Assembly: GCF_031260455.1 (NCBI RefSeq)
Contig: NZ_JAIRJW010000037.1
DNA length: 64,000 nt
Reading direction: 5' to 3' (one strand)
DNA from: Fluviicola sp.
GTDB taxonomy: Bacteria > Bacteroidota > Bacteroidia > Flavobacteriales_D > Crocinitomicaceae
Below, in pieces: positions 21,461 to 46,220 of this stretch (position 1 is the stretch's first letter; the number at the start of each line of letters is the position of its first letter). Both the position numbers and the translations under genes were made by a program. Below the pieces are notes generated by a model. It ran no database searches. It was not told the origin of the DNA and saw nothing but the letters and a program-made list of their open reading frames with translations.

Positions 21461-22339
21461 ATGTGGAAATATAAACAAGCCGGACTCATTGTTTTATTCC
21501 TGTTTCTGCTAACTTCCGTTAAAGCGTTTCCCATCACAGACCAGGATGGCAAAATAAATGTTACAGACGAAAAAGGAAGAAAGCAGGGTAAGTGGATTTA
21601 CTATGGTAAAGACCGTCCCGGGTCCGATGTTCCCCCGAATGGAAAAATAGAAGAGGGGGAGTATATTGACGATCGCAAAGAAGGCATTTGGATTCAGTAT
21701 TATAATGACGGTGTAACACCATCTTTAAGAGGAACTTACGAAAACAATCATCCAAAAGGGCAGTTTACCCGTTACTGGCCGAATGGTCAGATCAAAGAAA
21801 AAGGGATTTTCGAAAAAAACATTTATAAGGATTCTCTGATTCGCAAATACGAAAACGGACAAGCTTCCTACCAGGGATTCTATAACGAAATCGGGAAAGA
21901 AGACGGCAAAATCCGTTATTACTACCCGAACGGTCAGTTGGAGTATGAATATGATGCCAATAATGGTGTTGTGGCTGGAAAAGCTATCCGCTATTACGAA
22001 AATGGAGATATCAGGGAAATTATTTATTATGACGGAACCGGAAATCAAATCAGATCAGAGCTAAAAGATCCGGTAAACCCGATGGTCAAAATGAAAACCC
22101 CGGGACAATCCACGGAAAAACCACCAACAATTTCCGGTACCCCAAAAACTCAAGGGGCGAAATGGGTACCAAACGGCTATAATAAAGTTTATAACAATAA
22201 TGGGGAAATCTGGCAGGACGGGATCTTTAAAAACGGAGATCTCTGGGATGGAAAAGTTTACGTTTACGACAACGATGGAATTCTTCTCAAAGTAAAAGTT
22301 TACAAAAACGGCGTTTACCATTCAGACGGACAATTGTAA
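21461..22339 (+). CDS. Secreted MORN-repeat-variant (YwqK-like) repeat protein
   Basis: Signal peptide, then repeated G-x-G/W-x-x-YY-x-NG units (e.g. GKWIYYGKD, GIWIQYYNDG, IRYYYPNGQ, IRYYENGD). Confidence 0.7.
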   Translation: MWKYKQAGLIVLFLFLLTSVKAFPITDQDGKINVTDEKGRKQGKWIYYGKDRPGSDVPPNGKIEEGEYIDDRKEGIWIQYYNDGVTPSLRGTYENNHPKGQFTRYWPNGQIKEKGIFEKNIYKDSLIRKYENGQASYQGFYNEIGKEDGKIRYYYPNGQLEYEYDANNGVVAGKAIRYYENGDIREIIYYDGTGNQIRSELKDPVNPMVKMKTPGQSTEKPPTISGTPKTQGAKWVPNGYNKVYNNNGEIWQDGIFKNGDLWDGKVYVYDNDGILLKVKVYKNGVYHSDGQL

Positions 22340-22565
22340 ATGGAGTCCGCTAGTTTCGTTTCGTGTGGCGGTTTAAAAAAATCATAAGCCATCCGTTACA
22401 CCGCCTGTGATGAGGAAAAAATAAAAACCTGGTCGGGCGAAACGGAAAAAAGGCTGTTGACCTTGCTATGAAGATCCGTTTAAAAAGGGTTCCACCATAA
22501 CAAAGTTTTAGCTGCTGAAGTAAACATCCTAGTTTATTCGATAAGCAAGTAGTATGAAAAGAAAA

Positions 22566-24761
22566 CTAATTTCCAAGCTCTAATTGATTTTTGACCAGAT
22601 TATAATAAAGTCCCTGAAACTTGACTAAACTTTCATGATTTCCTATTTCAGCAACCTTTCCTTGGTCAAGAACAACAATCTGATCTGCATTTTTAACTGT
22701 ACTCAGCCGGTGGGCAATTATACAAACTGTTTTCCCCTTGAAAAAAGTTTTGAGATTATTATGAATTTGCAATTCGTTATGTGCATCTAAACTGCTTGTT
22801 GCTTCATCAAAGAAAATAAATTCCGGATTCCGATATATTGCTCTGGCAATAAGAATTCGTTGTGTTTGACCACCACTTAATTGAATTCCCACACTTCCAA
22901 CTTTTGTAGAGTATCCCATTGGAAGAGATGAAATAAAATCATCTATGCAAGCAATCTCCGCTACCTTTCTTATTTGTTCCAAATCATCAATGTTATTTGA
23001 AAATGCAATGTTGAAAGCTATCGTACCGCTAAAAATAATCCCTTCTTGCGAAACTACCCCACAGGAATTCCTCCATAAATCGGGATTAATTTGATTAATA
23101 TCCTGGTCACCTAGCAGAATTTGTCCAGAGGAAACTTTGTGATATTTCAATAATAATTTTAACAACGTCGTTTTTCCACTCCCACTTTGTCCAACAATTG
23201 CAGTTGTTTTATTCGCAGGAATTACAAAATCAATATTTTCAAGAACGAATGGATTAAAAGAGCCTGGATATTTAAACGAAATGCCTTTCAGTCTAATATC
23301 AAAGTCAGAATTCAACGGAACGAGATTTGCACCGTCATCTTCATTTTGTTCGTTATATACATCACTTATCCTGTTATAAGCAATTTTAGCATCCTGTGTA
23401 TCTTTGATGAAGTTTATGATATTCTGAATCGGACCAGATAATTGACCTAGAATATAAGTAGTGGCAAGCATTGAGCCTATCGTCATTTTTCCTTCAATGA
23501 TTAAATATGCACAAATTGCAATAGCTGCTATTTCTTTTAATTTAGAAAGAAAACCCACTCCTATCAATTGATAAATATTGAGAAAAAGTGAACGAAGTTC
23601 AAGCCTGTTTAGTTTGTGCTGTAAATCAATAATGTTCTTTATTATTGCATCTTGAGCATTATGCGTTCTTATTTCTGGCATATTCATTACAAACTCATAT
23701 AGCAGATTACTATTTGCTGATTGCCTTAAAAAAATCGAGTATTCAATTACTGCGCGTTTTTTCAGAAAAACTGCAACCCAAAGAATTGAAAATATGCTTA
23801 GTAAAATATAAATACTAAAAACCGTTTTACTTGAATAAAAAAGAAGTATGCTAAATACAATGATATTCGCAGAGGTAATTAAAAGTGACAGTCCTTTCCA
23901 AGTGACAAAATTCTTGATTTTCTCATGATCGCCCAGCCTCTCTAAAGTATCAGAGTTTAACCGTGTGTCAAAATAACTAATCGGCAACTTCATCAATTTT
24001 TTCAAGAAGTTTTCTTTTAAATTTATACTTAAATAGAAGTTTATTTTTGTTAAAGACCATTCTGATATAAATTCAGAAATAATACTACTTATAAACAAAA
24101 TGAGTTGTGCAATCAGTAGATATACTACAATATTCAAAGAGCGATCTAATATTCCTTCATCTAATATTCGTTTAAATATTACTGGTGATAACCAATTGGA
24201 AACCAAACCAATAAAAAGAATCAATATTGAGAGTAGATACTTAAATTTATTGTTCTTGACATAGCTGAATACATTATTCAATAGGCTTCTATCTTGTTGT
24301 CTCCCTTCAATTTTAGGTATTTCCAAGCCCTCATCACCTTCTTGAAAAAGGATTGCAACACCTTTGGATTCATTGCCTACCCATTCATTTTTAAAAACAT
24401 CCTCTTCCAAACCCGTTTCTCCATAACCCGGATCAGCTATATGATAGATTCTTTTATTTCTCCTTACTTCTACCTTATATAACACAACAAAATGATCCTG
24501 TTTCCAAAAAAGTATAGCAGGTAGTGGAACTTGCTCTATTTCTTCTAAATTTACCTTGTAAGCATTGGTTTCAAATCCTATTTTTTTTCCTCCTTCAACT
24601 ATATCTTGAACTGAAACCCCCATACGAGTAACAGAACAAATAGATTTGACAGTTTTCACATCAGCCTTCAAACCAAAATGGCTGCATATCATTGAAAGGC
24701 AAGCAGGTCCACAATCAACACTTTCACTCTGATGAAAGAATCTAAATTTTTTATTAAACAT
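22566..24761 (-). CDS. Peptidase C39-domain ABC transporter (double-glycine leader-cleaving bacteriocin/RiPP exporter)
   Basis: N-terminal C39 motif QSESVDCGPACLSMI with downstream HFVVLY. Six-TM region. Walker A GQSGSGKTT, signature LSGGQTQR, Walker B FIFFDEATSSLD. Confidence 0.9.
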   Translation of the reverse strand: MFNKKFRFFHQSESVDCGPACLSMICSHFGLKADVKTVKSICSVTRMGVSVQDIVEGGKKIGFETNAYKVNLEEIEQVPLPAILFWKQDHFVVLYKVEVRRNKRIYHIADPGYGETGLEEDVFKNEWVGNESKGVAILFQEGDEGLEIPKIEGRQQDRSLLNNVFSYVKNNKFKYLLSILILFIGLVSNWLSPVIFKRILDEGILDRSLNIVVYLLIAQLILFISSIISEFISEWSLTKINFYLSINLKENFLKKLMKLPISYFDTRLNSDTLERLGDHEKIKNFVTWKGLSLLITSANIIVFSILLFYSSKTVFSIYILLSIFSILWVAVFLKKRAVIEYSIFLRQSANSNLLYEFVMNMPEIRTHNAQDAIIKNIIDLQHKLNRLELRSLFLNIYQLIGVGFLSKLKEIAAIAICAYLIIEGKMTIGSMLATTYILGQLSGPIQNIINFIKDTQDAKIAYNRISDVYNEQNEDDGANLVPLNSDFDIRLKGISFKYPGSFNPFVLENIDFVIPANKTTAIVGQSGSGKTTLLKLLLKYHKVSSGQILLGDQDINQINPDLWRNSCGVVSQEGIIFSGTIAFNIAFSNNIDDLEQIRKVAEIACIDDFISSLPMGYSTKVGSVGIQLSGGQTQRILIARAIYRNPEFIFFDEATSSLDAHNELQIHNNLKTFFKGKTVCIIAHRLSTVKNADQIVVLDQGKVAEIGNHESLVKFQGLYYNLVKNQLELGN

Positions 24762-24775
24762 CTAAAATCTATACT

Positions 24776-27205
24776 TTAAATTCGATTTCTTTCTGATTCA
24801 CTTCCTTTGTTCTGCTTCCTTTGTCTTATGTACTTATTACCGAATTTATAGCTCAATGAAAAGGCAATATTTCTTGAATCATAGTAGTTGTTGGTGTAAA
24901 TAGAAAAGGTTGAAGTTCGCATGTCCGATTTTGGTGCTGAATTTTTAAATAAATCTGAAATATTTACAGATAATATTAATCGGCCCTCCAAAAACTTTTG
25001 GGTTAATCCGAAACCCAAAATATACTGGGACTTCATGTTGGAGATTGTATATATGGAGCCTAATGGACGAGCCGAAAAATTCACATCTGCTGAAAGCCCT
25101 TTAGTAATTGTAATTGAGGAATTGAAGTTACAGAATAAAATACTGGTCGAAGATGCTTCGTAAAAAGATGCCTTTGGTTTAAAAGTCGAAAACAAATACA
25201 CCAACACGATCGAATTTTCTATTTTCTCCCCCAGATTAAAAGGAATATTAACAAAACCTCCGTATTGATTAGTATTTCCAATGTTCTCTTGGGTATATAC
25301 AATATTATTCAATTCGTCTTTTGGCGCCTCCATATACGAATTAGCAAAATTGGTGTACAAAAGCCCCAAATAATAACGGTCATTTAAAACATAATCAATT
25401 TCAGCATCTGTAATATAAGTTGGTCTTAGTTGAGGATTTCCAATATTATAAATCCGATTTGTTACGTAACGTCTAAATGGATTCAGGGAAGTAAATCCTG
25501 GTCTATCTATTCGCATACCATAGGATATCGAAACCGTATGCTTACCGGAAAATTTATGCAAATAATAAATCGTCGGAAACAGATTAAAAAACACTCGTTT
25601 TGTTTGACTATTTACTATATCTTGCTTTCCAATTAGTTGAGTGTACTCTCCTCGTATTCCTAGTTGAATCTCATCTTTGTCCCATTGTTTGTTATAAGAA
25701 GTATAAAATGCTTCTGTCTGCTCAGTATATAAAAAGCGACTATTTTGAAGTGTGTCATAGAAGACATTATTATTAACCGAATGCGTCATTGAATTATTAT
25801 TATTATTTCCGATCCAGTTAAATTTAGCTCCTATACTAAAATTACCAATTTTTGAAGGCAATTGATATTCTACATCAATTACTGCAAGATTTACCAACTG
25901 CACACTTCCGCTATTCATTGATTCAAAAGAATTCAATGTATCTCCTGAATAATTTTGAAAATCAAAATTATTGGCTAAATCTGTATTATTGTAAAAATAA
26001 TTCGCGACAAAATTTAGACTTCGTCCAGTTGAATCCAATTTATACTGCCAACTAGCATTTACAGATTGAAAATATAAATCAGTAGCATTTCTTTTGAATG
26101 TATAAGCCGTCGAATCAATTATACTACCATATCCATAAATACTTTCTGCAGTAGATTGATTCTTCAGAACAGAAACACTTCCTTCCCAACTTACAGATAA
26201 ATTTGATTTACTCGAAAAGTAGTAATCTAAACCGATTGTACCTCTCATTCCTTGGGAATATCGATTGGTTATGTCATTCTGCCTGTTAAAGGACGAACTA
26301 AAGCTATAATCTGATTTTTCATTGTATCTATTTTCACCATTTCGACCGCTAAGGGTTCCATACACATTAAATTTCTTGCCTCGATGGTTAAGCATAAAGC
26401 TCAATCTTTCAGCCCCATAAAAAGCTTGTGTGTAAGATGCTGTCAGACTTCCGTTAGTACCTAGCATTCTATTCTTCTTCAACACAATATTGATTATTGC
26501 ACTTCCACTGGCATCGTACTTTGAAGGAGGGTTTGTCAATACCTCAATTCTAACGACTTCCTCGGACGGAATTGATTCTAAATACTGAACCAAATCATCT
26601 CCTTCCAAATATATTCGCTTTTCATTAATCAAAAAAGCTAATCCAGCTTTTCCAACGACCGAAATACTTCGATTTTGAACAAAAACCAATGGTGTCTTAC
26701 TCAAAAGTTCAAGTACATTCCTCCCACTTGAATTGGATGTATTCTCAATATTGAAAACTAATCTGTCAATCTTTTTCTCAATCAATGGGGGCTTACCGGT
26801 TATTTCAACGAGATTTAGCTGATGACTATTAGGATTCAGATTTAAGAGTCCTAAATCAATCGTTTTAACTTCTGCAGGTTGAATGATCCGAATAACAGTG
26901 TCCCTAATTTCAGCTTGGGTAATAAACAAGAAAACGTCAATTGGTTCAACAATCAAATTGAATTCAAATTGACCAATTGAATCTGAAAAAGCATAAAACA
27001 ACAATAATGAATCACTGACCTTTCGTAACTCTAATTTTGCAAAAACACAATCTCCTCCGTCAGCTATCTTTAACCGACCTTTAACTACGCTTTGACCATA
27101 GGAATAACCAAAAAAATTAAAAAACAGGGTAATCAGGATAGTTCTAAATAATACAATTCCGCAATTTGGAACTACTTTAGTTAAAATTAACTTCAACAAT
27201 TTCAT
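24776..27205 (-). CDS. TonB-dependent-receptor-like outer-membrane beta-barrel protein (CarboxypepD_reg-like domain, plug-like domain, barrel)
   Basis: Signal/anchor, a VVKGRLK.. Ig-like N-domain, a plug-like stretch (RNVLELLSKTPLVFV...VVRIEVLTNPPSKYDASGSAIINIVLKK), then a long Y/N/S-rich beta-strand region. It overlaps the maturase stop by 29 nt and ends 14 nt before the ABC gene start. Confidence 0.75.
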   Translation of the reverse strand: MKLLKLILTKVVPNCGIVLFRTILITLFFNFFGYSYGQSVVKGRLKIADGGDCVFAKLELRKVSDSLLLFYAFSDSIGQFEFNLIVEPIDVFLFITQAEIRDTVIRIIQPAEVKTIDLGLLNLNPNSHQLNLVEITGKPPLIEKKIDRLVFNIENTSNSSGRNVLELLSKTPLVFVQNRSISVVGKAGLAFLINEKRIYLEGDDLVQYLESIPSEEVVRIEVLTNPPSKYDASGSAIINIVLKKNRMLGTNGSLTASYTQAFYGAERLSFMLNHRGKKFNVYGTLSGRNGENRYNEKSDYSFSSSFNRQNDITNRYSQGMRGTIGLDYYFSSKSNLSVSWEGSVSVLKNQSTAESIYGYGSIIDSTAYTFKRNATDLYFQSVNASWQYKLDSTGRSLNFVANYFYNNTDLANNFDFQNYSGDTLNSFESMNSGSVQLVNLAVIDVEYQLPSKIGNFSIGAKFNWIGNNNNNSMTHSVNNNVFYDTLQNSRFLYTEQTEAFYTSYNKQWDKDEIQLGIRGEYTQLIGKQDIVNSQTKRVFFNLFPTIYYLHKFSGKHTVSISYGMRIDRPGFTSLNPFRRYVTNRIYNIGNPQLRPTYITDAEIDYVLNDRYYLGLLYTNFANSYMEAPKDELNNIVYTQENIGNTNQYGGFVNIPFNLGEKIENSIVLVYLFSTFKPKASFYEASSTSILFCNFNSSITITKGLSADVNFSARPLGSIYTISNMKSQYILGFGLTQKFLEGRLILSVNISDLFKNSAPKSDMRTSTFSIYTNNYYDSRNIAFSLSYKFGNKYIRQRKQNKGSESERNRI

Positions 27206-28487
27206 TTATTTTATTGATAATTACTTTATCCTTTTCATTTTCATCTCCAAAGAAGACACAGTATTCTCTCCCTAAATTATCTAAAGCATGTTGTGAGCAA
27301 CCGCCATTACACAAAGGCATTATTTTACACGATAGACAAGGTTTATTATTGAACTTAGAACTCATTCGTTTATCAAGGGAATCATTTTCCCAAATTATTA
27401 TACCATCATCGGTCAAATATCCCTCTCTTTTTTCAGCAAGAAAGTCACGCGCAGTACATTTGTAAACATCACTATTATAGTTAATTACCGCGCTATTTCG
27501 TTTGTCGGCATAGCAAGAATTTCTAACATTATCTGCAGAATATCCTGATTGGGCATCAATTCCGGTTTCCTTAATTTGTTGAATATTTTTTTGAGCAATT
27601 TCATCAGTATCGTCAATTTGATTATCTTGCCATACTCTATGAAAATCAAACTTTAGAAAACGATCTTTTAAATCCTGATCCAGATCCGAAAATTCATTTG
27701 CAATTTTAAAAGTGTCTTCAATATTTTTAGTAGTGTAGTTTATTCTAATATTGACAAAAAATTCATTTCGCACTAATAATTTTATATTCTTGACAATCTT
27801 TTCATAAGAGCCTTTACTTGAACTAACATAACGAATTTTGTCGTGCTTTTCCTTATATCCGTCTAATGTGATTTGTAAAGCGCTTTTTACTCCCTTTGAT
27901 CTAAAATAATCAATGAATTTATCATTAATCAAATATCCATTACTCGTAAATCCAATAAGAGGTTCGAGACTTTTCTCTTTACATTTAATTAAGTAGTAAT
28001 CAATAATCGGAATAACATCTTTTTCAAAATACAATAGTGGTTCTCCTCCGAAAAAGGACAAGTTAAAGGATTTAAGTTCTGAGGAACTCATTTGATTATC
28101 AATTAACTTATTTACCTTGTTTATCATTGTCATCCCCAACTTAGACTGAGGAATGTGAGTTTCATAACAATACCAGCATTTGAAATTACAATTCATTGTC
28201 GGATTAATAGTTAGAAAAAAATTGTCATGATTCTCATCGACAGATTTTGAAAGTTTTTTTATTTCTTCTATCTCATCAATGTTTTCATCAATAATAAATT
28301 CTTCCTGGATTAAATAATCGTATAATGTCGGGTGAATTCCTTGTAGATTATCAATACCTTCCACAATTGCAGCATTAATCAAATCCTTAACTATTTCTTC
28401 AATGAAGATAACCTTTTGGTTAATGGAATTGAAAAGGGCATAATTTTCTTGGTATTTTAATATTGTGTTGTATCTACTATACTTCAT
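27177..28487 (-). CDS. Radical SAM/SPASM-domain peptide maturase
   Basis: CX3CX2C (CNFKCWYC) at about residue 100 from the ATG at 28487. C-terminal SPASM motif CX2CX5CX3C (CLSCKIMPLCNGGC). The longest ORF (to 28601) would run into precursor 4, so the internal ATG, preceded by AGGAG, is preferred. Confidence 0.85.
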   Translation of the reverse strand: MKYSRYNTILKYQENYALFNSINQKVIFIEEIVKDLINAAIVEGIDNLQGIHPTLYDYLIQEEFIIDENIDEIEEIKKLSKSVDENHDNFFLTINPTMNCNFKCWYCYETHIPQSKLGMTMINKVNKLIDNQMSSSELKSFNLSFFGGEPLLYFEKDVIPIIDYYLIKCKEKSLEPLIGFTSNGYLINDKFIDYFRSKGVKSALQITLDGYKEKHDKIRYVSSSKGSYEKIVKNIKLLVRNEFFVNIRINYTTKNIEDTFKIANEFSDLDQDLKDRFLKFDFHRVWQDNQIDDTDEIAQKNIQQIKETGIDAQSGYSADNVRNSCYADKRNSAVINYNSDVYKCTARDFLAEKREGYLTDDGIIIWENDSLDKRMSSKFNNKPCLSCKIMPLCNGGCSQHALDNLGREYCVFFGDENEKDKVIINKINEIVEVNFN

Positions 28488-28510
28488 TTCTCCTAATCGA
28501 TAGGGTGTGG

Positions 28511-28741
28511 CTATCCGCCACACCCAGTTACACAATTCCCAGAGCAATTTGCATTTATACCCTTGGGTTTCTTTTTTGATTTTTTGTTCTTTGAACCACA
28601 ACCAACAGTAACGTTACCTCCTTTACAGTTATTAACAGATGTAGCATCAGGCTCTTGTTCAAGTAACCCAATAGAGATAGAAAATCCTCCAATTAATTCC
28701 TGACTGGAGTTATTCGATAGTTTTTCAAAATTTAATCCCAT
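28511..28741 (-). CDS. RiPP precursor peptide 4 (76 aa; GG leader, bipartite Cys-rich core with Lys-rich linker)
   Basis: MGLNFEKLSNNSSQELIGG|FS...NNCKGGNVTVGCGSKNKKSKKKPKGINANCSGNCVTGCGG. Confidence 0.75.
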   Translation of the reverse strand: MGLNFEKLSNNSSQELIGGFSISIGLLEQEPDATSVNNCKGGNVTVGCGSKNKKSKKKPKGINANCSGNCVTGCGG

Positions 28742-28810
28742 AACTTAAAATTTATTGGTTAGTGATTTTGATGCGTTAGTTGTCAAAAGTTAACAAAAGA
28801 AAAATAATAA

Positions 28811-29014
28811 TTAATTTTTCGGCCAAGAAATACTACATGAAGTCGCACAGTTAGAACCGGCAACACAATTATTCACTACTACGCATTGGCCGTCATTCTT
28901 ATTTGTACTAATTAAATTACCCTCGAACTTATTCATTACTCCAGAGAATCCGCCAACCAATTTTCCGTTGGCCACTTCTGTAATTTTTTGAAATGATTTA
29001 CTCAAGTTTTTCAT
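28811..29014 (-). CDS. RiPP precursor peptide 3 (67 aa)
   Basis: MKNLSKSFQKITEVANGKLVGG|FS...QCVVVNNCVAGSNCATSCSISWPKN. Confidence 0.8.
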   Translation of the reverse strand: MKNLSKSFQKITEVANGKLVGGFSGVMNKFEGNLISTNKNDGQCVVVNNCVAGSNCATSCSISWPKN

Positions 29015-29020
29015 AGCAGA

Positions 29021-29227
29021 TTATTTTAATTGTGTTTCACCACAACCCATTCGACAATTGGCTCCTGAACAGTTATTAGTTGTTATACAATCCTTATTCC
29101 TTTCCAAACCAATGGAATTATCCGAAAGACTTGGCTTCGCAACTTGGCTGAAGCCACCTACTAAAAGCCCAAAATCATTTATCTTTAGGCTTTCAAGATT
29201 TAATGAATTAATCTTTGAATTTTTCAT
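29021..29227 (-). CDS. RiPP precursor peptide 2 (68 aa)
   Basis: MKNSKINSLNLESLKINDFGLLVGG|FS...DCITTNNCSGANCRMGCGETQLK. It starts 9 nt after the stop of precursor 1. Confidence 0.8.
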   Translation of the reverse strand: MKNSKINSLNLESLKINDFGLLVGGFSQVAKPSLSDNSIGLERNKDCITTNNCSGANCRMGCGETQLK

Positions 29228-29236
29228 ATTAAAAAA

Positions 29237-29431
29237 TTATTCTGTGGCACCACATCCTTTAACACAATTACCACCATTGCAATTATTGACAGTTTGGCAT
29301 CTATCATTCAGCATTGAAACTGAATTGCCAGGTGCATTAAACGTAACAGAAAAGCCCCCAACCAAAAGACCTTCCTTGTCTTGATTTAACCCCTCAAATT
29401 TGGTTAAATCCATTTTCTTTGTTTTACTCAT
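29237..29431 (-). CDS. RiPP precursor peptide 1 (64 aa)
   Basis: MSKTKKMDLTKFEGLNQDKEGLLVGG|FS...RCQTVNNCNGGNCVKGCGATE. Confidence 0.8.
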   Translation of the reverse strand: MSKTKKMDLTKFEGLNQDKEGLLVGGFSVTFNAPGNSVSMLNDRCQTVNNCNGGNCVKGCGATE

Positions 29432-29749
29432 AAATAATAAAATTTAGTTAGCCTCAAATTACACCGTGAGGATTCGGCGAGCTAAAAGCGGTTGTTTATT
29501 TTAAACCGTAGTTTAGTGAGATAATTCTATAATGAAAAGTACCACCAACTTATTAAATCATTAATAATAAATTAGATAGGAAATTTCAAGTAGTTGAGCG
29601 CAATTTTTCGCAGAGTTAGAAAAGAACGTTCGGTTCCAACTGAATTGGATTGAAAAGTTTGAGCAATGTCATATTCAAATAGTGTTTTAAGTTCTCCACA
29701 CATAAATTGCCGTGAAGAATAGCAGTCAGCAGACTTGTTAGTAAATAGT

Positions 29750-29900
29750 CAACCTGTACAATGATAAACAAATATCCACATATTAACAAGTTGTACAGGT
29801 TGTAAAATACAACTTATATCGTTGTATTTTGGTTGTATGGTACAACCAATAGCCAAAAATCATTATATTTCGTGCTGCGTATAGGTTGTACGATACAACT
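29750..29900. promoter_or_regulatory. Array of palindromic operator-like sites GTTGTA-N3-TACAAC plus extra half-sites, between the precursor operon and the XRE gene
   Basis: Palindromes at 29799-29813 (GTTGTAaaaTACAAC), 29831-29847 (GGTTGTAtggTACAACC) and 29884-29899 (GGTTGTAcgaTACAAC). Half-sites at 29790-29795 and 29821-29826. An 11-bp inverted repeat, CAACCTGTACA (29750-29760)/TGTACAGGTTG (29792-29802). Confidence 0.6.
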
Positions 29901-29924
29901 AAGAAAGTTCAAAAAAAATGAATT

Positions 29925-30326
29925 ATGGGAGAATTAGAGGTTAGTTACGCAAACAAATTGCGTTTTCTTAGGCATCGACACGGAAAAAAACAAATTGAAG
30001 TTGCCGATCATTTGAAATTAAGTCAGCAGGCTTATAGTAAGTTGGAAAATGGGGAGACTTCTTTTTCAGATGAAGTAATAGAGAGAATAGCTGACTTCTT
30101 TAAAATTACGCCAGCAGATTTTGTTAAACCTTTCGATCAAATGAATATTGGTGATAATAGCATGAACAGTAATACTACTATTCATTTGATTGATGCAAAA
30201 ATTATTGAAACATTAGAAAAACTATACCAACAAAATGTTACTCTTATTGAATTAAATGTAAAGTTAACCGAAAATCTGCTCAAAGAAAAAGACCTTAGAA
30301 TTAAAGATTTAGAAAAAGGGAAATAA
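29925..30326 (+). CDS. XRE-family helix-turn-helix transcriptional regulator with a C-terminal coiled-coil-like tail
   Basis: HTH_3 pattern LRFLRHRHGKKQIEVADHLKLSQQAYSKLENGETSFSDEVIERIADFF. Divergently oriented to the RiPP operon. Confidence 0.85.
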   Translation: MGELEVSYANKLRFLRHRHGKKQIEVADHLKLSQQAYSKLENGETSFSDEVIERIADFFKITPADFVKPFDQMNIGDNSMNSNTTIHLIDAKIIETLEKLYQQNVTLIELNVKLTENLLKEKDLRIKDLEKGK

Positions 30327-30449
30327 GACAACTACCCGGTTATATAATTGAATATCAGATTGTTTTGTAAACAATTGTTCATCGAATCGACATGATAAGC
30401 ATTGAAATTTTTCGGATTAATTTTCTGAAAATCAAATAGTTTATCAAAA

Positions 30450-31364
30450 TTAATAAGGTTTATCCCAGAAAGTGGGTTCTTTAAAACGGATAATGGATAT
30501 GAAATTGGTGCTCACTTCCCGGATAATGATGGAATAAATCAAACCGGTCAAACCACTGTAAACAAGCTGGTATTCGGTCACAAACACGCCATCTTTATAA
30601 ACCAGCTTCGACTGAAGATTCCCGAAAGCGTCATAAGTGAAACGGGATTCGGAAGTTGGAACCGTATCCATATTTTTATAGACGGAAATATTTTCGATCC
30701 AGCCTTTGTCCGAATACTTGTATTTGGTTGTAATCCGGTTCCGGGTAATGGTAAACAATTCCTCTTCCCTGGATAAATATCCCAGGCTGTCATAATATTT
30801 TGTTACTTCCAGGTATTGGTTCCCATAACTATTGAAAACCTTCTTCCGGTATTGTCCTTCGTAAACCTGATAATCCATTGTTTCGGTATTCCAGAGAATA
30901 CTTCGCTCAATGAAGGGATTCAGGAGACTGTGCATGGTATCAATATCACGATAAACCTCTTCTTTTATAGACTGACCGTCTCCATTGTAAGAATAATAAG
31001 TTGACAAAAAACCTTTTTTCTGACTGATCCGTTTGCGCACCATTCTTCCATCCCTGGTATAATCGTAAAAACGAACGGTTGTATCAGTTACTCCATCTCC
31101 TTTAGCCGTTTGATAGTGACGAACAAGATTTCCGAGCGTATCAAAATCGAAAACATACACATAATTCGATTCACGCATAATGTCGCCCTGCTTTTTATAC
31201 GTAAAGGCCCCGCGGATTTCTTTGATCTTACTTCCCTTGATGAATCTTGTGTTGAAAAAGGGCACATCTGTTAAAGCGACTCCTTTCGAATTGTCGAAAA
31301 GCTGCGCCGATACGCTGTTTGCCAGTAAAGTGAGGATGAAAAAAAAGCTATACTTCAAAAACAT
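30450..31364 (-). CDS. Secreted hypothetical protein with YD/RHS-like repeats
   Basis: Signal peptide MFLKYSFFFILTLLANSVSAQ from the ATG at 31364; the longest ORF runs to 31394. Repeats FDTLGNL, YDYTRDGRM, YNGDGQS, YDSLGYL, YDAFGNL. Confidence 0.6.
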   Translation of the reverse strand: MFLKYSFFFILTLLANSVSAQLFDNSKGVALTDVPFFNTRFIKGSKIKEIRGAFTYKKQGDIMRESNYVYVFDFDTLGNLVRHYQTAKGDGVTDTTVRFYDYTRDGRMVRKRISQKKGFLSTYYSYNGDGQSIKEEVYRDIDTMHSLLNPFIERSILWNTETMDYQVYEGQYRKKVFNSYGNQYLEVTKYYDSLGYLSREEELFTITRNRITTKYKYSDKGWIENISVYKNMDTVPTSESRFTYDAFGNLQSKLVYKDGVFVTEYQLVYSGLTGLIYSIIIREVSTNFISIIRFKEPTFWDKPY

Positions 31365-31426
31365 AACGCAAAAATGGGTTGAATTTTGAAGCATAGCTTA
31401 AATTTTAAGAAAAATTGGAATCTTGT

Positions 31427-44472: not shown

Positions 44473-44997
44473 TCATGAATTTAAAATATGAGAGTTCCCC
44501 GTTAGTATATCCAATCCGGTGTTTCTAAAATCTTTGTCATTAGTCAGCAATACGAAATTGCTCTCCTTGCAAAAGATCGCAATTGCTTTATCAACAATAT
44601 CAAGGGTATCTGGAATCAAAAGCCCTTCTATCTCCATTTTATTAAATGCTTTTCCGGTCACTTCAAAGCGGTTCAATACATTCTCTTTTAAAATCGTATA
44701 AATATCTTTTAAAGCAGATTGGCCAACTTCACTTTCCCTGAAGTCCTTAAATTTTAGAGTTGAAGCCACTTTTACATTTTCAATTCGAATAATCCTGTTA
44801 ACGACTTCTGAAACTACCAAAAAATCAACAAATAACCGATTACCTTGTTTCAAAAGTAAACGAAAAACCTTAGCGTAACTCTCTTCATATCTGTGCTGAC
44901 CTGTAGGCCAAAACAAGTAAATCAGGACATTGGCATCAATAAATACATTTCGATCTCTGATCTGACTAACCTCATTCAATCTATAATTAGCAGCCAT
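44473..44997 (-). CDS. PIN-domain nuclease
   Basis: The acidic residues sit in canonical contexts: VFIDANVLIY, VVSEVVNR, LLTNDKDF. ATG at 44997; the track ORF starts at a TTG at 45003. Confidence 0.75.
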   Translation of the reverse strand: MAANYRLNEVSQIRDRNVFIDANVLIYLFWPTGQHRYEESYAKVFRLLLKQGNRLFVDFLVVSEVVNRIIRIENVKVASTLKFKDFRESEVGQSALKDIYTILKENVLNRFEVTGKAFNKMEIEGLLIPDTLDIVDKAIAIFCKESNFVLLTNDKDFRNTGLDILTGNSHILNS

Positions 44998-45010
44998 AAG
45001 CAAGTCAGTT

Positions 45011-45388
45011 TTAGTCTAATAAATCATTAATGCTTCTTTCTAATGCATCCGGATCACTATAGAATAATTTTGCCGTATCTACAACGCGTTTTAGCGCCAC
45101 TTTCCCGGAATCAGACATATCTGTAACCTGTAAATGTTCTTTAATGTATGATTCAGAATAATCTTTATAGAGCTGACCAATTGCTGTATTCAGAAAAGCC
45201 GTTGTAAGCATTTCAATATTCACAAAGGAAAGTATGACTTTGTGGTCATTTTCAAAAGCTTTTCGAACCAATTCATATACCTTTTGACCATCTTCAGCTT
45301 CTACCCCAAATAGATCTCCAATTGTATTTACGATATTAATTGTAGTACCTTCCATAGTTTCAAAATATATCATTTTCATCAATTTCAC
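45011..45388 (-). CDS. STAS-like (DUF4325-type) small protein
   Basis: About 115-125 aa. The pattern ..VILSFVNIEMLTTAFLNTAIGQLY.. is typical of DUF4325/anti-sigma-antagonist-like proteins. Alternative ATG starts at 45379, 45373 and 45355. Confidence 0.6.
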   Translation of the reverse strand: MKLMKMIYFETMEGTTINIVNTIGDLFGVEAEDGQKVYELVRKAFENDHKVILSFVNIEMLTTAFLNTAIGQLYKDYSESYIKEHLQVTDMSDSGKVALKRVVDTAKLFYSDPDALERSINDLLD

Positions 45389-46220
45389 CGGTTAATGAAT
45401 AGTTGTTACTATCATCTGTACAGAATTGCAAATTTACAATTGTTCCCGGAAATTCTCCATTAAACATCTTTGTCATCACTCCGTCATTATCATACTGATA
45501 AAACCCATCCCGACTAATAATTTGCATTCGACCCTTATTCATATTTATGAATTCTCTCAAAACTGCTAATCCTAAACCTCCGGTTACCTGCTTGGTAGTA
45601 TTTTTGTCCTGAACAGCCCACTCAATTGCTCTATCAGCTGCCAAATGCTTTCCAAATCGTTCTAATATTTTTTGTTTGAATCCGACACCTGTATCAACGA
45701 TCGTGAATTCAATCTTATTTTTATTCGGAAAGAATTGACCACAGGTGTAAATATCTTCGGTATTACTATGGAATTGTGCATTGACGAAGATCTCATAAAT
45801 TGCCTCCACTATTTTTTCTTTTACTCCTGAAGACATAGGAGGCAAATCATAACTGTGCCCATCAATCAACTCTTCTATTACATAACGTTTAAAATATTTT
45901 CCATCTGTCGGTTTAAGACGCTGGTATTTAATTGTTGTACGATTTGTATCTTCTATCCTTTCTCTGCCATAGTATGTTAAAAAATCATTCTTAAGCAGAA
46001 TTTGCTCAATTTGCGAATGAATATAATCAAAAATCACATCATTTAGATTTTCTGAAAATTTGTCTAAAATGGCCCCAAGAGCAGCACTCATATTGGCAGC
46101 AAAAAAAACATCAAGTTCTAGTCTGATCTCATCAAACTCTTTATCTTTGTGACTATTGTAAAACGAGATTAGGTTCTGATAACTCGTAAATGTATTGTTG
46201 ACAGAAAACAGCCTATTCAT
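45360..46220 (-). CDS. GHKL-superfamily ATPase (HATPase_c, RsbW/SpoIIAB-like kinase fold)
   Basis: N-box EIFVNAQFHS, G1 box VDTGVGF, G2 box TGGLGLAVL. 286 aa with an uncharacterised N-terminal half. Confidence 0.7.
   Translation of the reverse strand: MNRLFSVNNTFTSYQNLISFYNSHKDKEFDEIRLELDVFFAANMSAALGAILDKFSENLNDVIFDYIHSQIEQILLKNDFLTYYGRERIEDTNRTTIKYQRLKPTDGKYFKRYVIEELIDGHSYDLPPMSSGVKEKIVEAIYEIFVNAQFHSNTEDIYTCGQFFPNKNKIEFTIVDTGVGFKQKILERFGKHLAADRAIEWAVQDKNTTKQVTGGLGLAVLREFINMNKGRMQIISRDGFYQYDNDGVMTKMFNGEFPGTIVNLQFCTDDSNNYSLTGEIDENDIF

What the first reader, a model, noticed from the sequence alone, without database searches (positions are those of the whole stretch)
22566..30326. Compact radical-SAM/SPASM RiPP cluster: four precursors, maturase, outer-membrane barrel, C39-ABC exporter and a divergent XRE regulator
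Seen: on the minus strand, four small ORFs (64-76 aa) are separated by only 6-69 nt. They are followed after 23 nt by a protein with CX3CX2C (CNFKCWYC) and a C-terminal CX2CX5CX3C (CLSCKIMPLCNGGC). Next comes a TonB-receptor-like barrel overlapping the maturase stop by 29 nt, and after 14 nt an ABC transporter with an N-terminal C39 Cys-protease motif (DCGPACL). An XRE HTH gene is divergent. Known: double-glycine leaders are cleaved by C39-ABC exporters, and SPASM radical SAM enzymes install crosslinks (sactionine/ranthionine thioethers and others) in Cys-rich RiPP cores. GG-leader peptide plus rSAM pairings are catalogued in Bacteroidota HMM collections, but as far as I know no product has been chemically characterised. 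Inference: this is a self-contained biosynthesis, export and regulation unit for a family of crosslinked peptides.
Basis: partly seen in the sequence, partly recalled or inferred. Interest (0 to 1): 0.9.

Follow-up and report, generated by a model that had tools for sequence, protein, structure and literature searches.

The report
Uncharacterised Bacteroidota radical-SAM peptide gene cluster
A 7.8-kb imported island in a Fluviicola genome encodes four small Cys/Asn/Gly-rich peptides, the radical-SAM enzyme that probably cross-links them, a leader-cleaving ABC exporter and a TonB-type outer-membrane barrel; the same kit is widespread in Bacteroidota but has no curated family, and I found no characterised product.

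Summary
Comparative data support the RiPP reading. In 80 genomes carrying a homologous rSAM, only three neighbouring protein families recur: the rSAM (80), a C39-ABC exporter (75) and an OMP_b-brl_3 barrel (66). In 73 loci, leader-GGFS peptides lie directly upstream of the rSAM. Their core is [T/A/S]-N-N-C-x-G-G-N-C-x-x-G-C-G. The maturase has an RRE-like N-terminus, CX3CX2C and a 7-Cys SPASM; its nearest solved relative is the thioether synthase CteB. The barrel models as a plug-containing TonB-dependent transporter with the same domain order as Oar. One close relative of the barrel flanks a lanthipeptide/PCAT cluster, so it tracks the exporter and not the chemistry. Neither the rSAM nor the precursors reach any NCBIfam family, including the catalogued Cys-rich and ranthipeptide families. 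The XRE gene is accessory. It shares the island's low GC and has three perfect palindromic operators, but it is absent or non-orthologous in the two closest relatives. Crosslink chemistry, bioactivity and the direction of barrel transport remain inferred. Verdict: a real, uncharacterised variant of a known kind; moderately high interest.

The parts
29237..29431 (-). Precursor P1 (64 aa, one-module 'type a'). Leader MSKTKKMDLTKFEGLNQDKEGLLVGG; core FSVTFNAPGNSVSMLNDRCQTVNNCNGGNCVKGCGATE.
   Evidence: 75% aa identity to the L081 ortholog with a third-position substitution bias. NCBI names it 'hypothetical protein'.
29021..29227 (-). Precursor P2 (68 aa, type a); core ends ...KDCITTNNCSGANCRMGCGETQLK.
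28811..29014 (-). Precursor P3 (67 aa, type a variant); core ...GQCVVVNNCVAGSNCATSCSISWPKN. Not annotated at NCBI.
28511..28741 (-). Precursor P4 (76 aa, two-module 'type B'): NNCKGGNVTVGCG, then the Lys-rich linker SKNKKSKKKPKG, then NANCSGNCVTGCGG. It is the precursor next to the rSAM, as in every other locus that carries a type B peptide.
   Evidence: 86% identity to the L081 ortholog.
27177..28487 (-). Radical SAM/SPASM peptide maturase (436 aa). It has an RRE-like N-terminus (aa 7-61), CX3CX2C (C100/C104/C107) and a 7-Cys SPASM (C325, C344, C384, C387, C393, C397, C410).
   Evidence: invariant Cys; CteB, E 1e-18; AF2 pLDDT 87; top folds CteB, TigE, SuiB.
24776..27205 (-). Outer-membrane TonB-dependent-transporter-like protein (809 aa): signal peptide, CarboxypepD_reg-like beta-sandwich (about aa 39-123), plug (about 142-242) and barrel (249-789). 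Its start overlaps the rSAM stop by 29 nt.
   Evidence: pLDDT 85.8; PhuR, PfeA, Cir, FoxA; E about 1e-20. A homolog lies near the rSAM in 66/80 loci.
22566..24761 (-). Peptidase-containing ABC transporter (PCAT, 731 aa). C39 domain with Q11/C17/H90/D110, a six-helix TMD, and an NBD with Walker A GQSGSGKT, LSGGQ and Walker B.
   Evidence: full-length match to PCAT1 4ry2, E 2e-89; ComA 8hf4. Catalytic residues were read from the sequence.
29432..29719 (-). Conserved non-coding upstream region of the operon. The proximal block CCGAATCCTCACGGTGTAATTTGAGGC (29451-29477) is near-identical in the two closest relatives (one T/C difference in L082). A second conserved block lies at about 29641-29719. 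Presumed promoter or 5' leader.
   Evidence: No Rfam family. The motif is absent from more distant loci.
29799..29899 (.). Three perfect copies of the 15-bp palindrome GTTGTA-N3-TACAAC (29799-29813, 29832-29846, 29885-29899), 26-126 nt upstream of the XRE start. Candidate XRE operators.
   Evidence: No other perfect copy in the 64-kb window (one further site with 1 mismatch, at 52145); 0.09 matches expected at up to 1 mismatch.
29925..30326 (+). XRE-family HTH protein (133 aa; HTH aa 9-66 plus a helical C-terminal tail). Divergent, with low GC like the cassette.
   Evidence: GC3 0.239 against 0.41-0.47 in flanking genes. A BLAST-similar XRE gene occurs in only 4 of 80 loci (3 group together in the clustering). 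L082 has a non-homologous HTH gene at the same place.

Best explanation
This is a horizontally acquired RiPP biosynthetic island of about 7.8 kb in a Fluviicola genome. It belongs to a large, uncurated Bacteroidota family.

Shown by sequence and comparison: four co-directional precursor genes encode a Cys-free leader of about 20-26 aa ending in GG, an almost invariant FS, a variable spacer, and a C-terminal N-N-C-x-G-G-N-C-x-x-G-C-G module. P4 carries two modules joined by a Lys-rich linker. The genes that follow are an RRE-rSAM-SPASM maturase, a plug-containing TonB-type barrel, and a C39-peptidase ABC exporter with an intact Cys/His/Asp triad. These three genes are translationally packed.

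Inferred mechanism: the RRE binds the leader. The rSAM uses 5'-dA radical chemistry and its two auxiliary clusters to cross-link the conserved Cys residues. Thioethers are most likely. The three near-invariant Asn per module are candidate acceptors, by analogy to Cys-Asn beta-thioethers. The PCAT then cleaves after GG and moves the peptide across the inner membrane. No membrane-fusion or TolC partner is conserved, so the peptide would be released in the periplasm and cross the outer membrane through the dedicated TonB-type barrel (two-step export, as with Oar/PopC). The one-module peptides and the cationic two-module peptide probably act together as secreted antagonistic peptides.

The divergent XRE protein binds three GTTGTA-N3-TACAAC operators. 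It at least autoregulates, and it may gate the operon in this strain.
For: Anatomy.

Conserved module: rSAM 80/80, PCAT 75/80, barrel 66/80, and no other family in more than 10 loci.

Precursors: 184 precursor-like ORFs in 73/80 loci, nearly all directly upstream of the rSAM. 178 of 186 leaders lack Cys, and FS follows GG in 159 of 186. The motif logo gives N 94%, N 98%, C, x, G, G 82%, N, C 95%, x, x, G 69%, C 93%, G 76%.

Enzyme-substrate co-variation: the NNC motif occurs in 114/148 cores where the rSAM is at least 49% identical, and in 1/38 otherwise.

Cys counts are odd as often as even (91 against 95), which argues against a disulfide-only fold.

Coding selection.

Maturase: all 10 cluster Cys are invariant. 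The profile hits CteB at E 1e-18. The AF2 model has a beta3-alpha3 RRE-like N-terminus and its top folds are CteB, TigE and SuiB. The best NCBIfam relatives all act on Cys-rich peptides.

PCAT: full-length match to PCAT1.

Barrel: TBDT fold. Homologs carry CarboxypepD_reg + Plug + TonB_dep_Rec, the same architecture as Oar, which is required for PopC secretion (PMC6434023). A 31%-identical homolog sits upstream of a LanB/LanC/PCAT lanthipeptide cluster, and two others sit with rSAM/PCAT. TonB-receptor-like proteins were also noted in Bacteroidetes graspetide loci and predicted to export (PMC8939145).

Island: GC 0.324 against 0.423; the same cassette lies in other genomic contexts; relatives occur on plasmids.

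Operators.
Against: No chemistry has been observed, so thioether formation, the acceptor residues and the Calpha/Cbeta regiochemistry are guesses. The nearest solved relatives share under 20% identity and include non-thioether enzymes (SuiB, anSME).

No immunity gene is evident, which is unusual for a bacteriocin locus.

TBDTs normally import. The Plug domain is below Pfam's threshold in this protein (15.1 bits against 23.9). The TonB box is only consensus-like.

Four of the seven OMP homologs whose contexts were looked up are not next to RiPP genes. 14 of 80 loci lack a nearby barrel.

The XRE gene is absent or non-orthologous in the nearest relatives, and its operators lie about 370-470 nt from P1.

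The strong conservation of FS after GG is not explained by simple GG cleavage.
Confidence: 0.8

Rival explanations
1. The barrel is an importer or receptor and not an exporter. The mature peptide would be secreted by another route and taken back up through the TonB-dependent barrel, as a signal or as a metal-binding peptide. Alternatively, the barrel provides self-protection.
For: Every structural neighbour of the model is an uptake transporter (haem, siderophores, colicin and microcin receptors). The domain set NTE + plug + barrel is that of importers. Cys-rich peptides can bind metals. The barrel diverges much faster (23-37% identity) than the rSAM (43-61%) or the PCAT (38-61%) across loci, as surface receptors often do.
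Against: No inner-membrane importer, periplasmic binding protein or sensor is conserved in the 80 loci. The barrel accompanies PCATs in clusters of unrelated chemistry (rSAM, lanthipeptide, graspetide), which ties it to export and not to one ligand. No MFP/TolC is conserved to provide another way out. If all Cys are thioether-linked, no thiols remain for metal binding.
Confidence: 0.27
2. The rSAM installs something other than Cys thioethers, for example epimerisation, C-C or C-O crosslinks, or modification of Asn. The cysteines would then form disulfides in the periplasm.
For: Related SPASM enzymes do many chemistries: SuiB makes a Lys-Trp crosslink, DynA makes C-C/N-C links, and YhhB and GrrM make cyclophanes. 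All of these appear among the hits. The window's three type-a peptides have four Cys each, which is compatible with two disulfides.
Against: The closest profile and fold match is the thioether synthase CteB. The closest NCBIfam families all target Cys-rich peptides. Cores have almost no aromatic residues (W 0.1%, Y 0.9%), so cyclophane or Trp crosslinks are unlikely. Odd Cys counts are as frequent as even ones.
Confidence: 0.22
3. The small ORFs are unmodified class-II-type GG-leader bacteriocins, or spurious ORFs, and the rSAM acts on an unrelated substrate, for example as an anaerobic sulfatase-maturase-like enzyme.
For: anSME families appear among the weaker hits (79 bits against a cutoff of 349). 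The small ORFs match no HMM and are annotated as hypothetical.
Against: Peptide genes lie directly upstream of the rSAM in 73/80 genomes. Core type co-varies with rSAM clade. The enzyme has an RRE-like leader-binding domain. No sulfatase lies in the island. The substitution pattern is that of coding sequence.
Confidence: 0.03

Closest known systems
Ranthipeptide / SCIFF-type thioether RiPPs (CteB-thermocellin, PapB-freyrasin, QhpD)
   Same: A Cys-rich core is modified by an RRE-rSAM-SPASM maturase with seven auxiliary-cluster Cys. CteB is the best solved-structure match by both profile and fold. PapB, SCIFF and QhpD models give significant but sub-threshold hits.
   Different: Scores are far below the family cutoffs (PapB 99/340, SCIFF maturase 66/425). 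The precursors have a GG leader, and a different N-N-C-x-G-G-N-C-x-x-G-C-G core replaces the CX3D/E-type (freyrasin) or SCIFF-type core. The host is Gram-negative Bacteroidota and the cluster carries a dedicated outer-membrane barrel. The known acceptors are Asp/Glu/Thr; here the conserved candidates are Asn (own knowledge for the known acceptors).
NCBIfam TIGR04463 (rSAM_vs_C_rich) and CefB 'Cys-every-fifth' (NF038107) maturases
   Same: These are the best-scoring curated families, with full-length alignments from the N-terminus through most of the SPASM region (profile positions 2-397 of 438). Both target Cys-rich peptides.
   Different: The window rSAM scores 157 and 144 bits against cutoffs of 525 and 600. 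Ten family members sampled across Bacteroidota also fail (at most 189 bits). The Cys spacing here is C-x4-C-x3-C and not every fifth residue.
NxxC-type RaS-RiPPs of streptococci (Cys-Asn beta-thioether; from my own knowledge, not checked here)
   Same: An rSAM/SPASM enzyme acts on short cores in which Asn and Cys are the conserved residues. This gives a precedent for Asn as a thioether acceptor.
   Different: The motif spacing differs (NNC / GNC in place of NxxC). The leader is a GG leader and not an SHP/Rgg-linked one. The phylum and the export machinery differ. No sequence-level family match was found.
PCAT exporters (PCAT1, ComA, CvaB, LahT)
   Same: Full-length homology to PCAT1 (E 2e-89). 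The C39 domain has the Gln/Cys/His/Asp residues, and the substrates have GG leaders.
   Different: In Gram-negative models (CvaB-CvaA-TolC) a membrane-fusion protein and TolC complete a one-step channel. Here neither is conserved, and a TonB-type barrel is linked instead. The protein scores below the TIGR01193 and TIGR03796 cutoffs.
Oar, the TonB-dependent transporter required for PopC secretion in Myxococcus xanthus (PMC6434023)
   Same: Same domain order: CarboxypepD_reg-like N-terminal extension, plug, 22-strand barrel. The proposed role is also the same: the outer-membrane step of a two-step secretion.
   Different: Oar's cargo is a 50-kDa protease and not a RiPP of about 4-6 kDa. Oar is not encoded next to its cargo. 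There is no detectable close sequence relationship, and export through the barrel here is inferred only.

Membership tests
Radical SAM / SPASM RiPP maturases (superfamily) | CX3CX2C radical SAM cluster motif in a Radical_SAM domain | tested here: met
   PF04055 E 6e-14, above the gathering score. C100/C104/C107 are invariant in 42 homologs.
Radical SAM / SPASM RiPP maturases (superfamily) | C-terminal SPASM region with 7 Cys for two auxiliary [4Fe-4S] clusters | tested here: met
   C325, C344, C384, C387, C393, C397 and C410 are invariant, in the pattern CX2CX5CX3C. The SPASM region aligns to SuiB and the full-length fold matches CteB. Pfam PF13186 itself was not reported for the window protein, though it is precomputed for homolog P0003.
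Radical SAM / SPASM RiPP maturases (superfamily) | N-terminal RRE (winged-helix, beta3-alpha3) for leader binding | tested here: met
   The AF2 model (pLDDT about 95 over aa 1-80) has strands 7-12, 15-20 and 25-29, then helices 31-43, 47-51 and 53-61. Binding itself was not tested.
Radical SAM / SPASM RiPP maturases (superfamily) | Genomic adjacency to a precursor peptide | tested here: met
   73/80 loci.
Ranthipeptides (SCIFF/PapB/CteB type) | Maturase reaches the family HMM cutoff (TIGR03974, NF047865) | tested here: not met
   66 bits against 425, and 99 bits against 340.
Ranthipeptides (SCIFF/PapB/CteB type) | Thioether from Cys S to a non-alpha carbon of the acceptor | not testable with these tools
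   Needs MS/MS and NMR of the product.
Sactipeptides | Cys S to acceptor Calpha thioether | not testable with these tools
   Needs MS/MS and NMR. SkfB is only a marginal hit (E 5e-4).
TIGR04463 / CefB (NF038107) Cys-rich peptide maturase families | Score at or above the curated equivalog cutoff | tested here: not met
   157/525 and 144/600 for the window rSAM. 146-189 bits for 10 other family members.
Catalogued GG-leader precursor families (e.g. TIGR01847 bacteriocin-type signal, GG-Bacteroidales precursor models) | Precursor matches the leader/precursor HMM | tested here: not met
   No NCBIfam or Pfam family matched P1-P4, even at E<=10. I could not list the library to confirm which GG models it holds.
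Double-glycine leader peptides (functional class) | Leader of about 15-30 aa ending in GG, with hydrophobic residues at -4, -12 and -15, encoded with a C39 transporter | tested here: met
   Median leader length is 26 aa and leaders end in [LIV]-x-G-G. P1 has L-4, L-12 and F-15 (by inspection). A PCAT lies in the same operon. Cleavage was not tested.
Peptidase-containing ABC transporters (PCAT) | N-terminal C39 domain with catalytic Cys/His/Asp, plus TMD and NBD | tested here: met
   PF03412 1e-29, PF00664 and PF00005. Q11, C17, H90 and D110 by inspection. PCAT1 full length, E 2e-89. TIGR01193 scores 331, below its cutoff of 524.
TonB-dependent transporters | 22-strand beta-barrel occluded by an N-terminal plug | tested here: met
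   AF2 pLDDT 85.8. Foldseek hits PhuR, PfeA, Cir and FoxA at E about 1e-20 and TM 0.5-0.7. PF14905 1e-70. Pfam Plug reaches only 15.1 bits against 23.9 in the window protein, but is present in homologs.
TonB-dependent transporters | Functional TonB box and dependence on TonB-ExbBD | tested here: inconclusive
   The family consensus L-x-E-V-x-x-x-A-x-K-P ahead of the plug resembles a TonB box. The window has LNLVEITGKP.
XRE-family transcription factors | HTH_3 domain | tested here: met
   PF01381 5e-12.

The most novel reading that the evidence does not exclude
Bacteroidota possess a phylum-wide, chemically uncharted class of secreted peptides. These are Asn/Gly/Cys-rich modules cross-linked by a dedicated rSAM, possibly through three Cys-Asn thioethers per module. 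They are often made as a pair of a one-module 'a' peptide and a cationic two-module 'B' peptide. They would leave the cell by a two-step route in which a TonB-dependent-transporter-like barrel, and not an MFP-TolC channel, carries PCAT-processed RiPPs across the outer membrane. That route would be shared with Bacteroidota lanthipeptides and graspetides.
Probability: 0.3. Interest if true: 0.8.

Novelty: new variant of a known kind. Interest (0 to 1): 0.6.

Why it matters
Bacteroidota are major members of soil, water, gut and fish-pathogen communities. Family members found here include Flavobacterium columnare, F. covae and F. davisii, and species of Tenacibaculum, Riemerella, Chryseobacterium, Pedobacter and Chitinophaga. 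Very few of their ribosomal natural products are characterised.

This locus is a compact, complete example (seven genes plus a regulator) of a family found here in 80 sampled species genomes. About 178 distinct precursor clusters (50% identity level) match a narrow profile. No curated model exists and I found no characterised product. The family therefore offers three things:
- a defined target for discovering a new crosslink pattern;
- a possible two-component antimicrobial;
- a clean genetic system for asking how Gram-negative bacteria without an MFP/TolC partner move processed peptides across the outer membrane, and whether a TonB-type barrel can work in export for peptides.

Tried and rejected
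HMM libraries. NCBIfam and Pfam scans of the four precursors gave nothing at E<=0.01 or at E<=10. I therefore did not file them under any GG-leader or SCIFF family.

Literature. Nine full-text searches and four papers read for this purpose found no description of this family. Two of the searches were badly chosen and returned noise: ('CefB' matched unrelated acronyms). Haft & Basu 2011 is not held. Subscription-only papers, such as rSAM-RiPP atlases, could not be checked.

Non-coding region. An Rfam scan of 22000-31000 gave no hit. RNAalifold on three upstream sequences had too few sequences to judge covariation. The conserved motif TCACGGTGTAAT occurs only in the two closest relatives.

XRE operators. 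My first operator pattern used the wrong spacer (N4) and missed the sites; N3 is correct. No comparable palindromes lie next to the XRE-like genes of L001, L038, L060 or L082 (one unrelated palindrome in L042).

Island borders. No direct or inverted repeats of 11 nt or more flank the island.

Small upstream ORF. The 43-aa ORF at 29572-29703 was rejected as a gene because its start codon is lost in L082.

Flanking genes. The MORN-repeat gene (21461-22339) and the 314-aa gene (30450-31394) have no counterparts in other loci and have host-like GC. They are not part of the system.

False positives. Two long Calx-beta-type proteins that topped the precursor profile search are false positives sharing 'IVGGFSVEV'.

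anSME reading. Rejected, as set out under the rival explanations.


Full report
**1.

On the minus strand there are four small ORFs: P1 29237-29431, P2 29021-29227, P3 28811-29014 and P4 28511-28741 (64, 68, 67 and 76 aa). They are separated by 9, 6 and 69 nt.

- The radical SAM gene is best started at ATG 28487, 23 nt after the P4 stop. The mechanical ORF list extends it to a TTG at 28601, which would overlap P4. This gives 436 aa with CNFKCWYC and CLSCKIMPLCNGGC.
- The 809-aa outer-membrane gene (24776-27205) overlaps the rSAM stop by 29 nt.
- The 731-aa ABC gene (22566-24761) follows after 14 nt.
- The XRE gene (29925-30326) is divergent.

Pfam confirms Radical_SAM, OMP_b-brl_3 (1e-70), Peptidase_C39 + ABC_membrane + ABC_tran, and HTH_3. 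The window comes from a Fluviicola sp. genome: the rSAM is 100% identical to an NCBI Fluviicola protein named only 'radical SAM/SPASM domain-containing protein'. P1, P2 and P4 are annotated 'hypothetical protein', and P3 is not annotated at NCBI at all.

**2. The four-part module is conserved, so the small ORFs are real precursors**

A scan of one genome per species returned 80 loci with an rSAM 43-62% identical to this one. All but two (MAGs labelled Limnohabitans and Hydrocarboniphaga) are from Bacteroidota. The genera include Flavobacterium (among them the fish pathogens F. columnare, F. covae and F. davisii), Chryseobacterium, Tenacibaculum, Riemerella, Bergeyella, Apibacter, Pedobacter, Mucilaginibacter, Chitinophaga, Niastella, Flammeovirga, Hymenobacter, Thermonema, and MAGs labelled Prevotellaceae.

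Clustering all ORFs of at least 110 aa in these loci gave only three families present in more than 10 loci: the rSAM (80), the C39-ABC transporter (75) and the OMP_b-brl_3 barrel (66). No HlyD-type membrane-fusion protein or TolC is conserved; an HlyD-like gene occurs in 7 divergent loci. The common gene order is barrel, precursors, rSAM, ABC. The window and its two closest relatives have precursors, rSAM, barrel, ABC.

An HMM seeded with P1-P4 and iterated on small ORFs found 184 precursor-like ORFs in 73 of the 80 loci. Nearly all lie directly upstream of the rSAM on the same strand, with 1-10 copies per locus.

Against the closest relative (L081, 73% nucleotide identity), differences in the four ORFs fall 10/11/31, 19/21/37, 11/13/38 and 9/4/22 on codon positions 1/2/3. 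Amino-acid changes concentrate in the spacer between GGFS and the Cys motif. That is the signature of protein-coding genes under purifying selection.

**3. Precursor anatomy**

- Leaders have a median length of 26 aa, and 178 of 186 lack Cys.
- Leaders end in [LIV]-x-G-G, and the next two residues are F-S in 159 of 186.
- Cores have a median length of 45 aa and are rich in Gly (15.7%), Asn (13.2%), Ser (9.9%) and Cys (9.6%), with almost no aromatic residues.
- Anchoring on C-x-G-x-N (107 of 150 precursors from loci whose rSAM is at least 49% identical) gives the module [T/A/S]-N(94%)-N(98%)-C-x-G-G(82%)-N-C(95%)-x-x-G(69%)-C(93%)-G(76%).
- Each module therefore has three near-invariant Cys and three near-invariant Asn.
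- Core Cys counts are odd in 91 precursors and even in 95. A fold held only by disulfides would not predict this.
- Loci whose rSAM is below 48% identity carry other cores (for example NISKCHCT, or repeated C-T-N). The NNC motif occurs in 114/148 cores in the first group and in 1/38 in the second. Enzyme and substrate therefore co-vary.

In the window and at least six other loci, the type B gene is the last one before the rSAM, and one-module 'type a' genes precede it (aaaB or aB). This suggests a two-component product.

A narrow profile of window and metagenome precursors hit 180 cluster representatives (50% identity level) among 1.84 billion proteins. Two of these were Calx-beta false positives.

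**4. The maturase**

All three radical-SAM Cys and seven SPASM Cys are invariant in 42 homologs. The AlphaFold model (pLDDT 87) begins with three strands and three helices (aa 7-61), which is the RRE topology.

- By profile, the best solved relative is CteB, the thermocellin thioether synthase (E 1e-18), then ChlB and SuiB.
- By fold, the best matches are CteB, TigE, SuiB and anSME.
- The best NCBIfam relatives are TIGR04463 'rSAM_vs_C_rich' (157 bits, cutoff 525), CefB 'Cys-every-fifth' (144/600), Clo7bot, the geopeptide maturase and PapB (99/340).
- Ten other members sampled across the family also stay far below every cutoff, at 189 bits or less.

The clade is thus a SPASM RiPP maturase family closest to enzymes that work on Cys-rich peptides, but it belongs to none of the curated families.

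**5. The exporter**

The ABC protein aligns over its full length with the peptidase-containing transporter PCAT1 (E 2e-89) and with ComA. By inspection it has the C39 oxyanion Gln (Q11), Cys17, His90 and Asp110, plus intact Walker A, signature and Walker B motifs. It should be catalytically competent for GG-leader cleavage coupled to export.

**6. The barrel**

Pfam sees only OMP_b-brl_3 plus a sub-threshold Plug. Homologs, however, carry CarboxypepD_reg-like + Plug + TonB_dep_Rec domains. The AlphaFold model (pLDDT 85.8) shows a signal peptide, an N-terminal beta-sandwich, a plug and a large barrel. Its structural neighbours are all TonB-dependent transporters: PhuR, PfeA, Cir, FoxA, FhuA and others, at E about 1e-20.

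What does it do in a RiPP operon? I see four lines of evidence.

- It is the third most conserved gene of the system, and in the window lineage it overlaps the rSAM gene, which suggests translational coupling.
- No MFP/TolC is conserved to complete a one-step channel.
- I looked up the contexts of seven of its best homologs outside the sibling clusters. Two sit in small-ORF/rSAM/PCAT clusters. One (Chryseobacterium sp. L7) sits directly upstream of a class I lanthipeptide cluster with two Lant_leader precursors, LanB, LanC and a PCAT. Two sit next to BlaR1-like genes, and two have no telling neighbours.
- Makarova et al. noted TonB-receptor-related proteins in Bacteroidetes graspetide loci and predicted an export role (PMC8939145).

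The barrel therefore follows the PCAT across unrelated chemistries. There is one experimental precedent for a TBDT of the same domain order working in secretion: Oar, which is required with TonB for the outer-membrane step of PopC export (PMC6434023).

I conclude that two-step export through the barrel is the most likely role, at roughly 50%. Uptake, sensing or self-protection is the main rival, at about 27%. The barrel also diverges far faster than its partners: 23-37% identity, against 43-61% for the rSAM and 38-61% for the PCAT. This fits a surface-exposed protein but does not settle the direction of transport.

**7. Regulation and mobility**

The cassette has GC 0.324 against 0.423 for the rest of the window. 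GC3 of its genes is 0.25-0.28, against 0.41-0.47 for the flanking housekeeping genes (epimerase, homogentisate dioxygenase, nuoN).

Nucleotide homology with the two closest relatives (72-73% identity) runs from exactly the ABC stop codon (22566/22567) to 29705 (L081) or 29530 (L082). The flanking genes differ in both. No flanking repeats were found. Relatives also occur on a 640-kb Flammeovirga replicon (57% identity) and, more distantly (39%), on a 30-kb MOBP-mobilisable plasmid of Rhizosphaericola mali, with five small ORFs and a PCAT. The unit is thus horizontally mobile.

The XRE gene shares the island's composition (GC3 0.239). It is preceded by three perfect copies of GTTGTA-N3-TACAAC within 100 bp. 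No other perfect copy occurs in 64 kb (one further site with one mismatch lies at 52145), and 0.09 matches are expected by chance at up to one mismatch. Autoregulation is therefore very likely.

The XRE gene is nonetheless not a conserved part of the system:
- L081 shows none in the 940 bp available upstream.
- L082 has a divergent HTH_3 gene at the same position that shares no detectable similarity and has no such palindromes.
- A BLAST-similar XRE gene occurs in only 4 of the 80 loci (3 of them group together in the clustering).

A divergent HTH regulator is a recurrent but interchangeable accessory.

Upstream of P1 there is a strongly conserved non-coding stretch. The block CCGAATCCTCACGGTGTAATTTGAGGC (29451-29477) is near-identical in both close relatives (one T/C difference in L082), and a second block lies at about 29641-29719. 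No Rfam family matches, and the sequences are too few to judge structure.

**8. Comparison with what is known, and novelty**

The locus works like a ranthipeptide- or sactipeptide-type pathway coupled to a PCAT. It fails every family-membership test that could be run: the curated rSAM cutoffs, the precursor HMMs and the GG-leader HMMs.

I found no description of the family, its product or its core motif in the open-access library (nine searches). Subscription-only literature could not be checked.

I rate it a new variant of a known kind. The enzymology class and the export logic are familiar. The core motif, the a/B precursor pairing, the absence of MFP/TolC and the conserved TonB-type barrel are not.

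Interest is 0.6. It is a solid, well-delimited lead and not a surprise of principle. The part that could become important is the barrel: a TonB-type transporter acting as a general outer-membrane exit for RiPPs in Bacteroidota.

Noticed in passing
window 28511-28741 (P4) versus 28811-29431 (P1-P3); also L001, L018, L019, L022, L024, L053: There are two kinds of precursor: one-module 'a' peptides and a two-module 'B' peptide with a Lys-rich linker. In most B peptides, including P4, the middle Cys of the first module is replaced by a hydrophobic residue. The B gene is always the one next to the rSAM (aaaB / aB). This suggests a two-component product.
   Followed up: partly
window 29799-29899: Three perfect copies of the 15-bp palindrome GTTGTA-N3-TACAAC lie just upstream of the XRE gene. 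No other perfect copy occurs in the window (one site with 1 mismatch at 52145; 0.09 expected at up to 1 mismatch). The palindromes are absent from the XRE-like neighbourhoods of other loci.
   Followed up: yes
window 29451-29477 and about 29641-29719; L081 ~660-930; L082 ~1890-2160: Non-coding blocks upstream of the first precursor are better conserved than the coding sequence. The proximal block is near-identical (one T/C difference in L082), against about 72% identity overall. Both blocks contain TCACGG. They may be promoter or 5'-leader elements. No Rfam match.
   Followed up: partly
window 28811-29014: Precursor P3 is not annotated in the NCBI record (only JGI and Logan call it), although it is conserved and under purifying selection.
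   Followed up: yes
L085 8001-18355 (Chryseobacterium sp. L7, JAELVM010000001.1): A 31%-identical homolog of the barrel lies directly upstream of a class I lanthipeptide cluster (two Lant_leader precursors, LanB, LanC, PCAT). The barrel-PCAT pairing therefore crosses RiPP classes.
   Followed up: partly
L084 5891-10376 and L090 3897-10376 (Pedobacter): Other close barrel homologs sit immediately after BlaI/BlaR1-like genes (Penicillinase_R + Peptidase_M56). This is a different and unexplained association.
   Followed up: no
loci L001-L080 compared with the window: Across loci the barrel is only 23-37% identical to the window protein. The rSAM (43-61%) and the PCAT (38-61%) of the same loci are far better conserved.
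   Followed up: no
L092 (Rhizosphaericola mali plasmid pB3-10, 30 kb, MOBP): A distant relative of the system (rSAM 39% identical, five small ORFs, PCAT) is carried on a small mobilisable plasmid. No barrel is annotated in the stretch shown.
   Followed up: no
window 44473-46220 (minus strand): A second low-GC patch (0.35) holds a PIN-domain protein, a DUF4325 (STAS-like) protein and an HATPase_c protein in a row. It may be a small imported toxin/defence-type module next to the nuo operon.
   Followed up: no
P0268, P0387: Giant Calx-beta-type repeat proteins score at the top of the precursor profile search only because each repeat contains 'IVGGFSVEV'. This is a trap for automated precursor mining with this leader motif.
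   Followed up: yes
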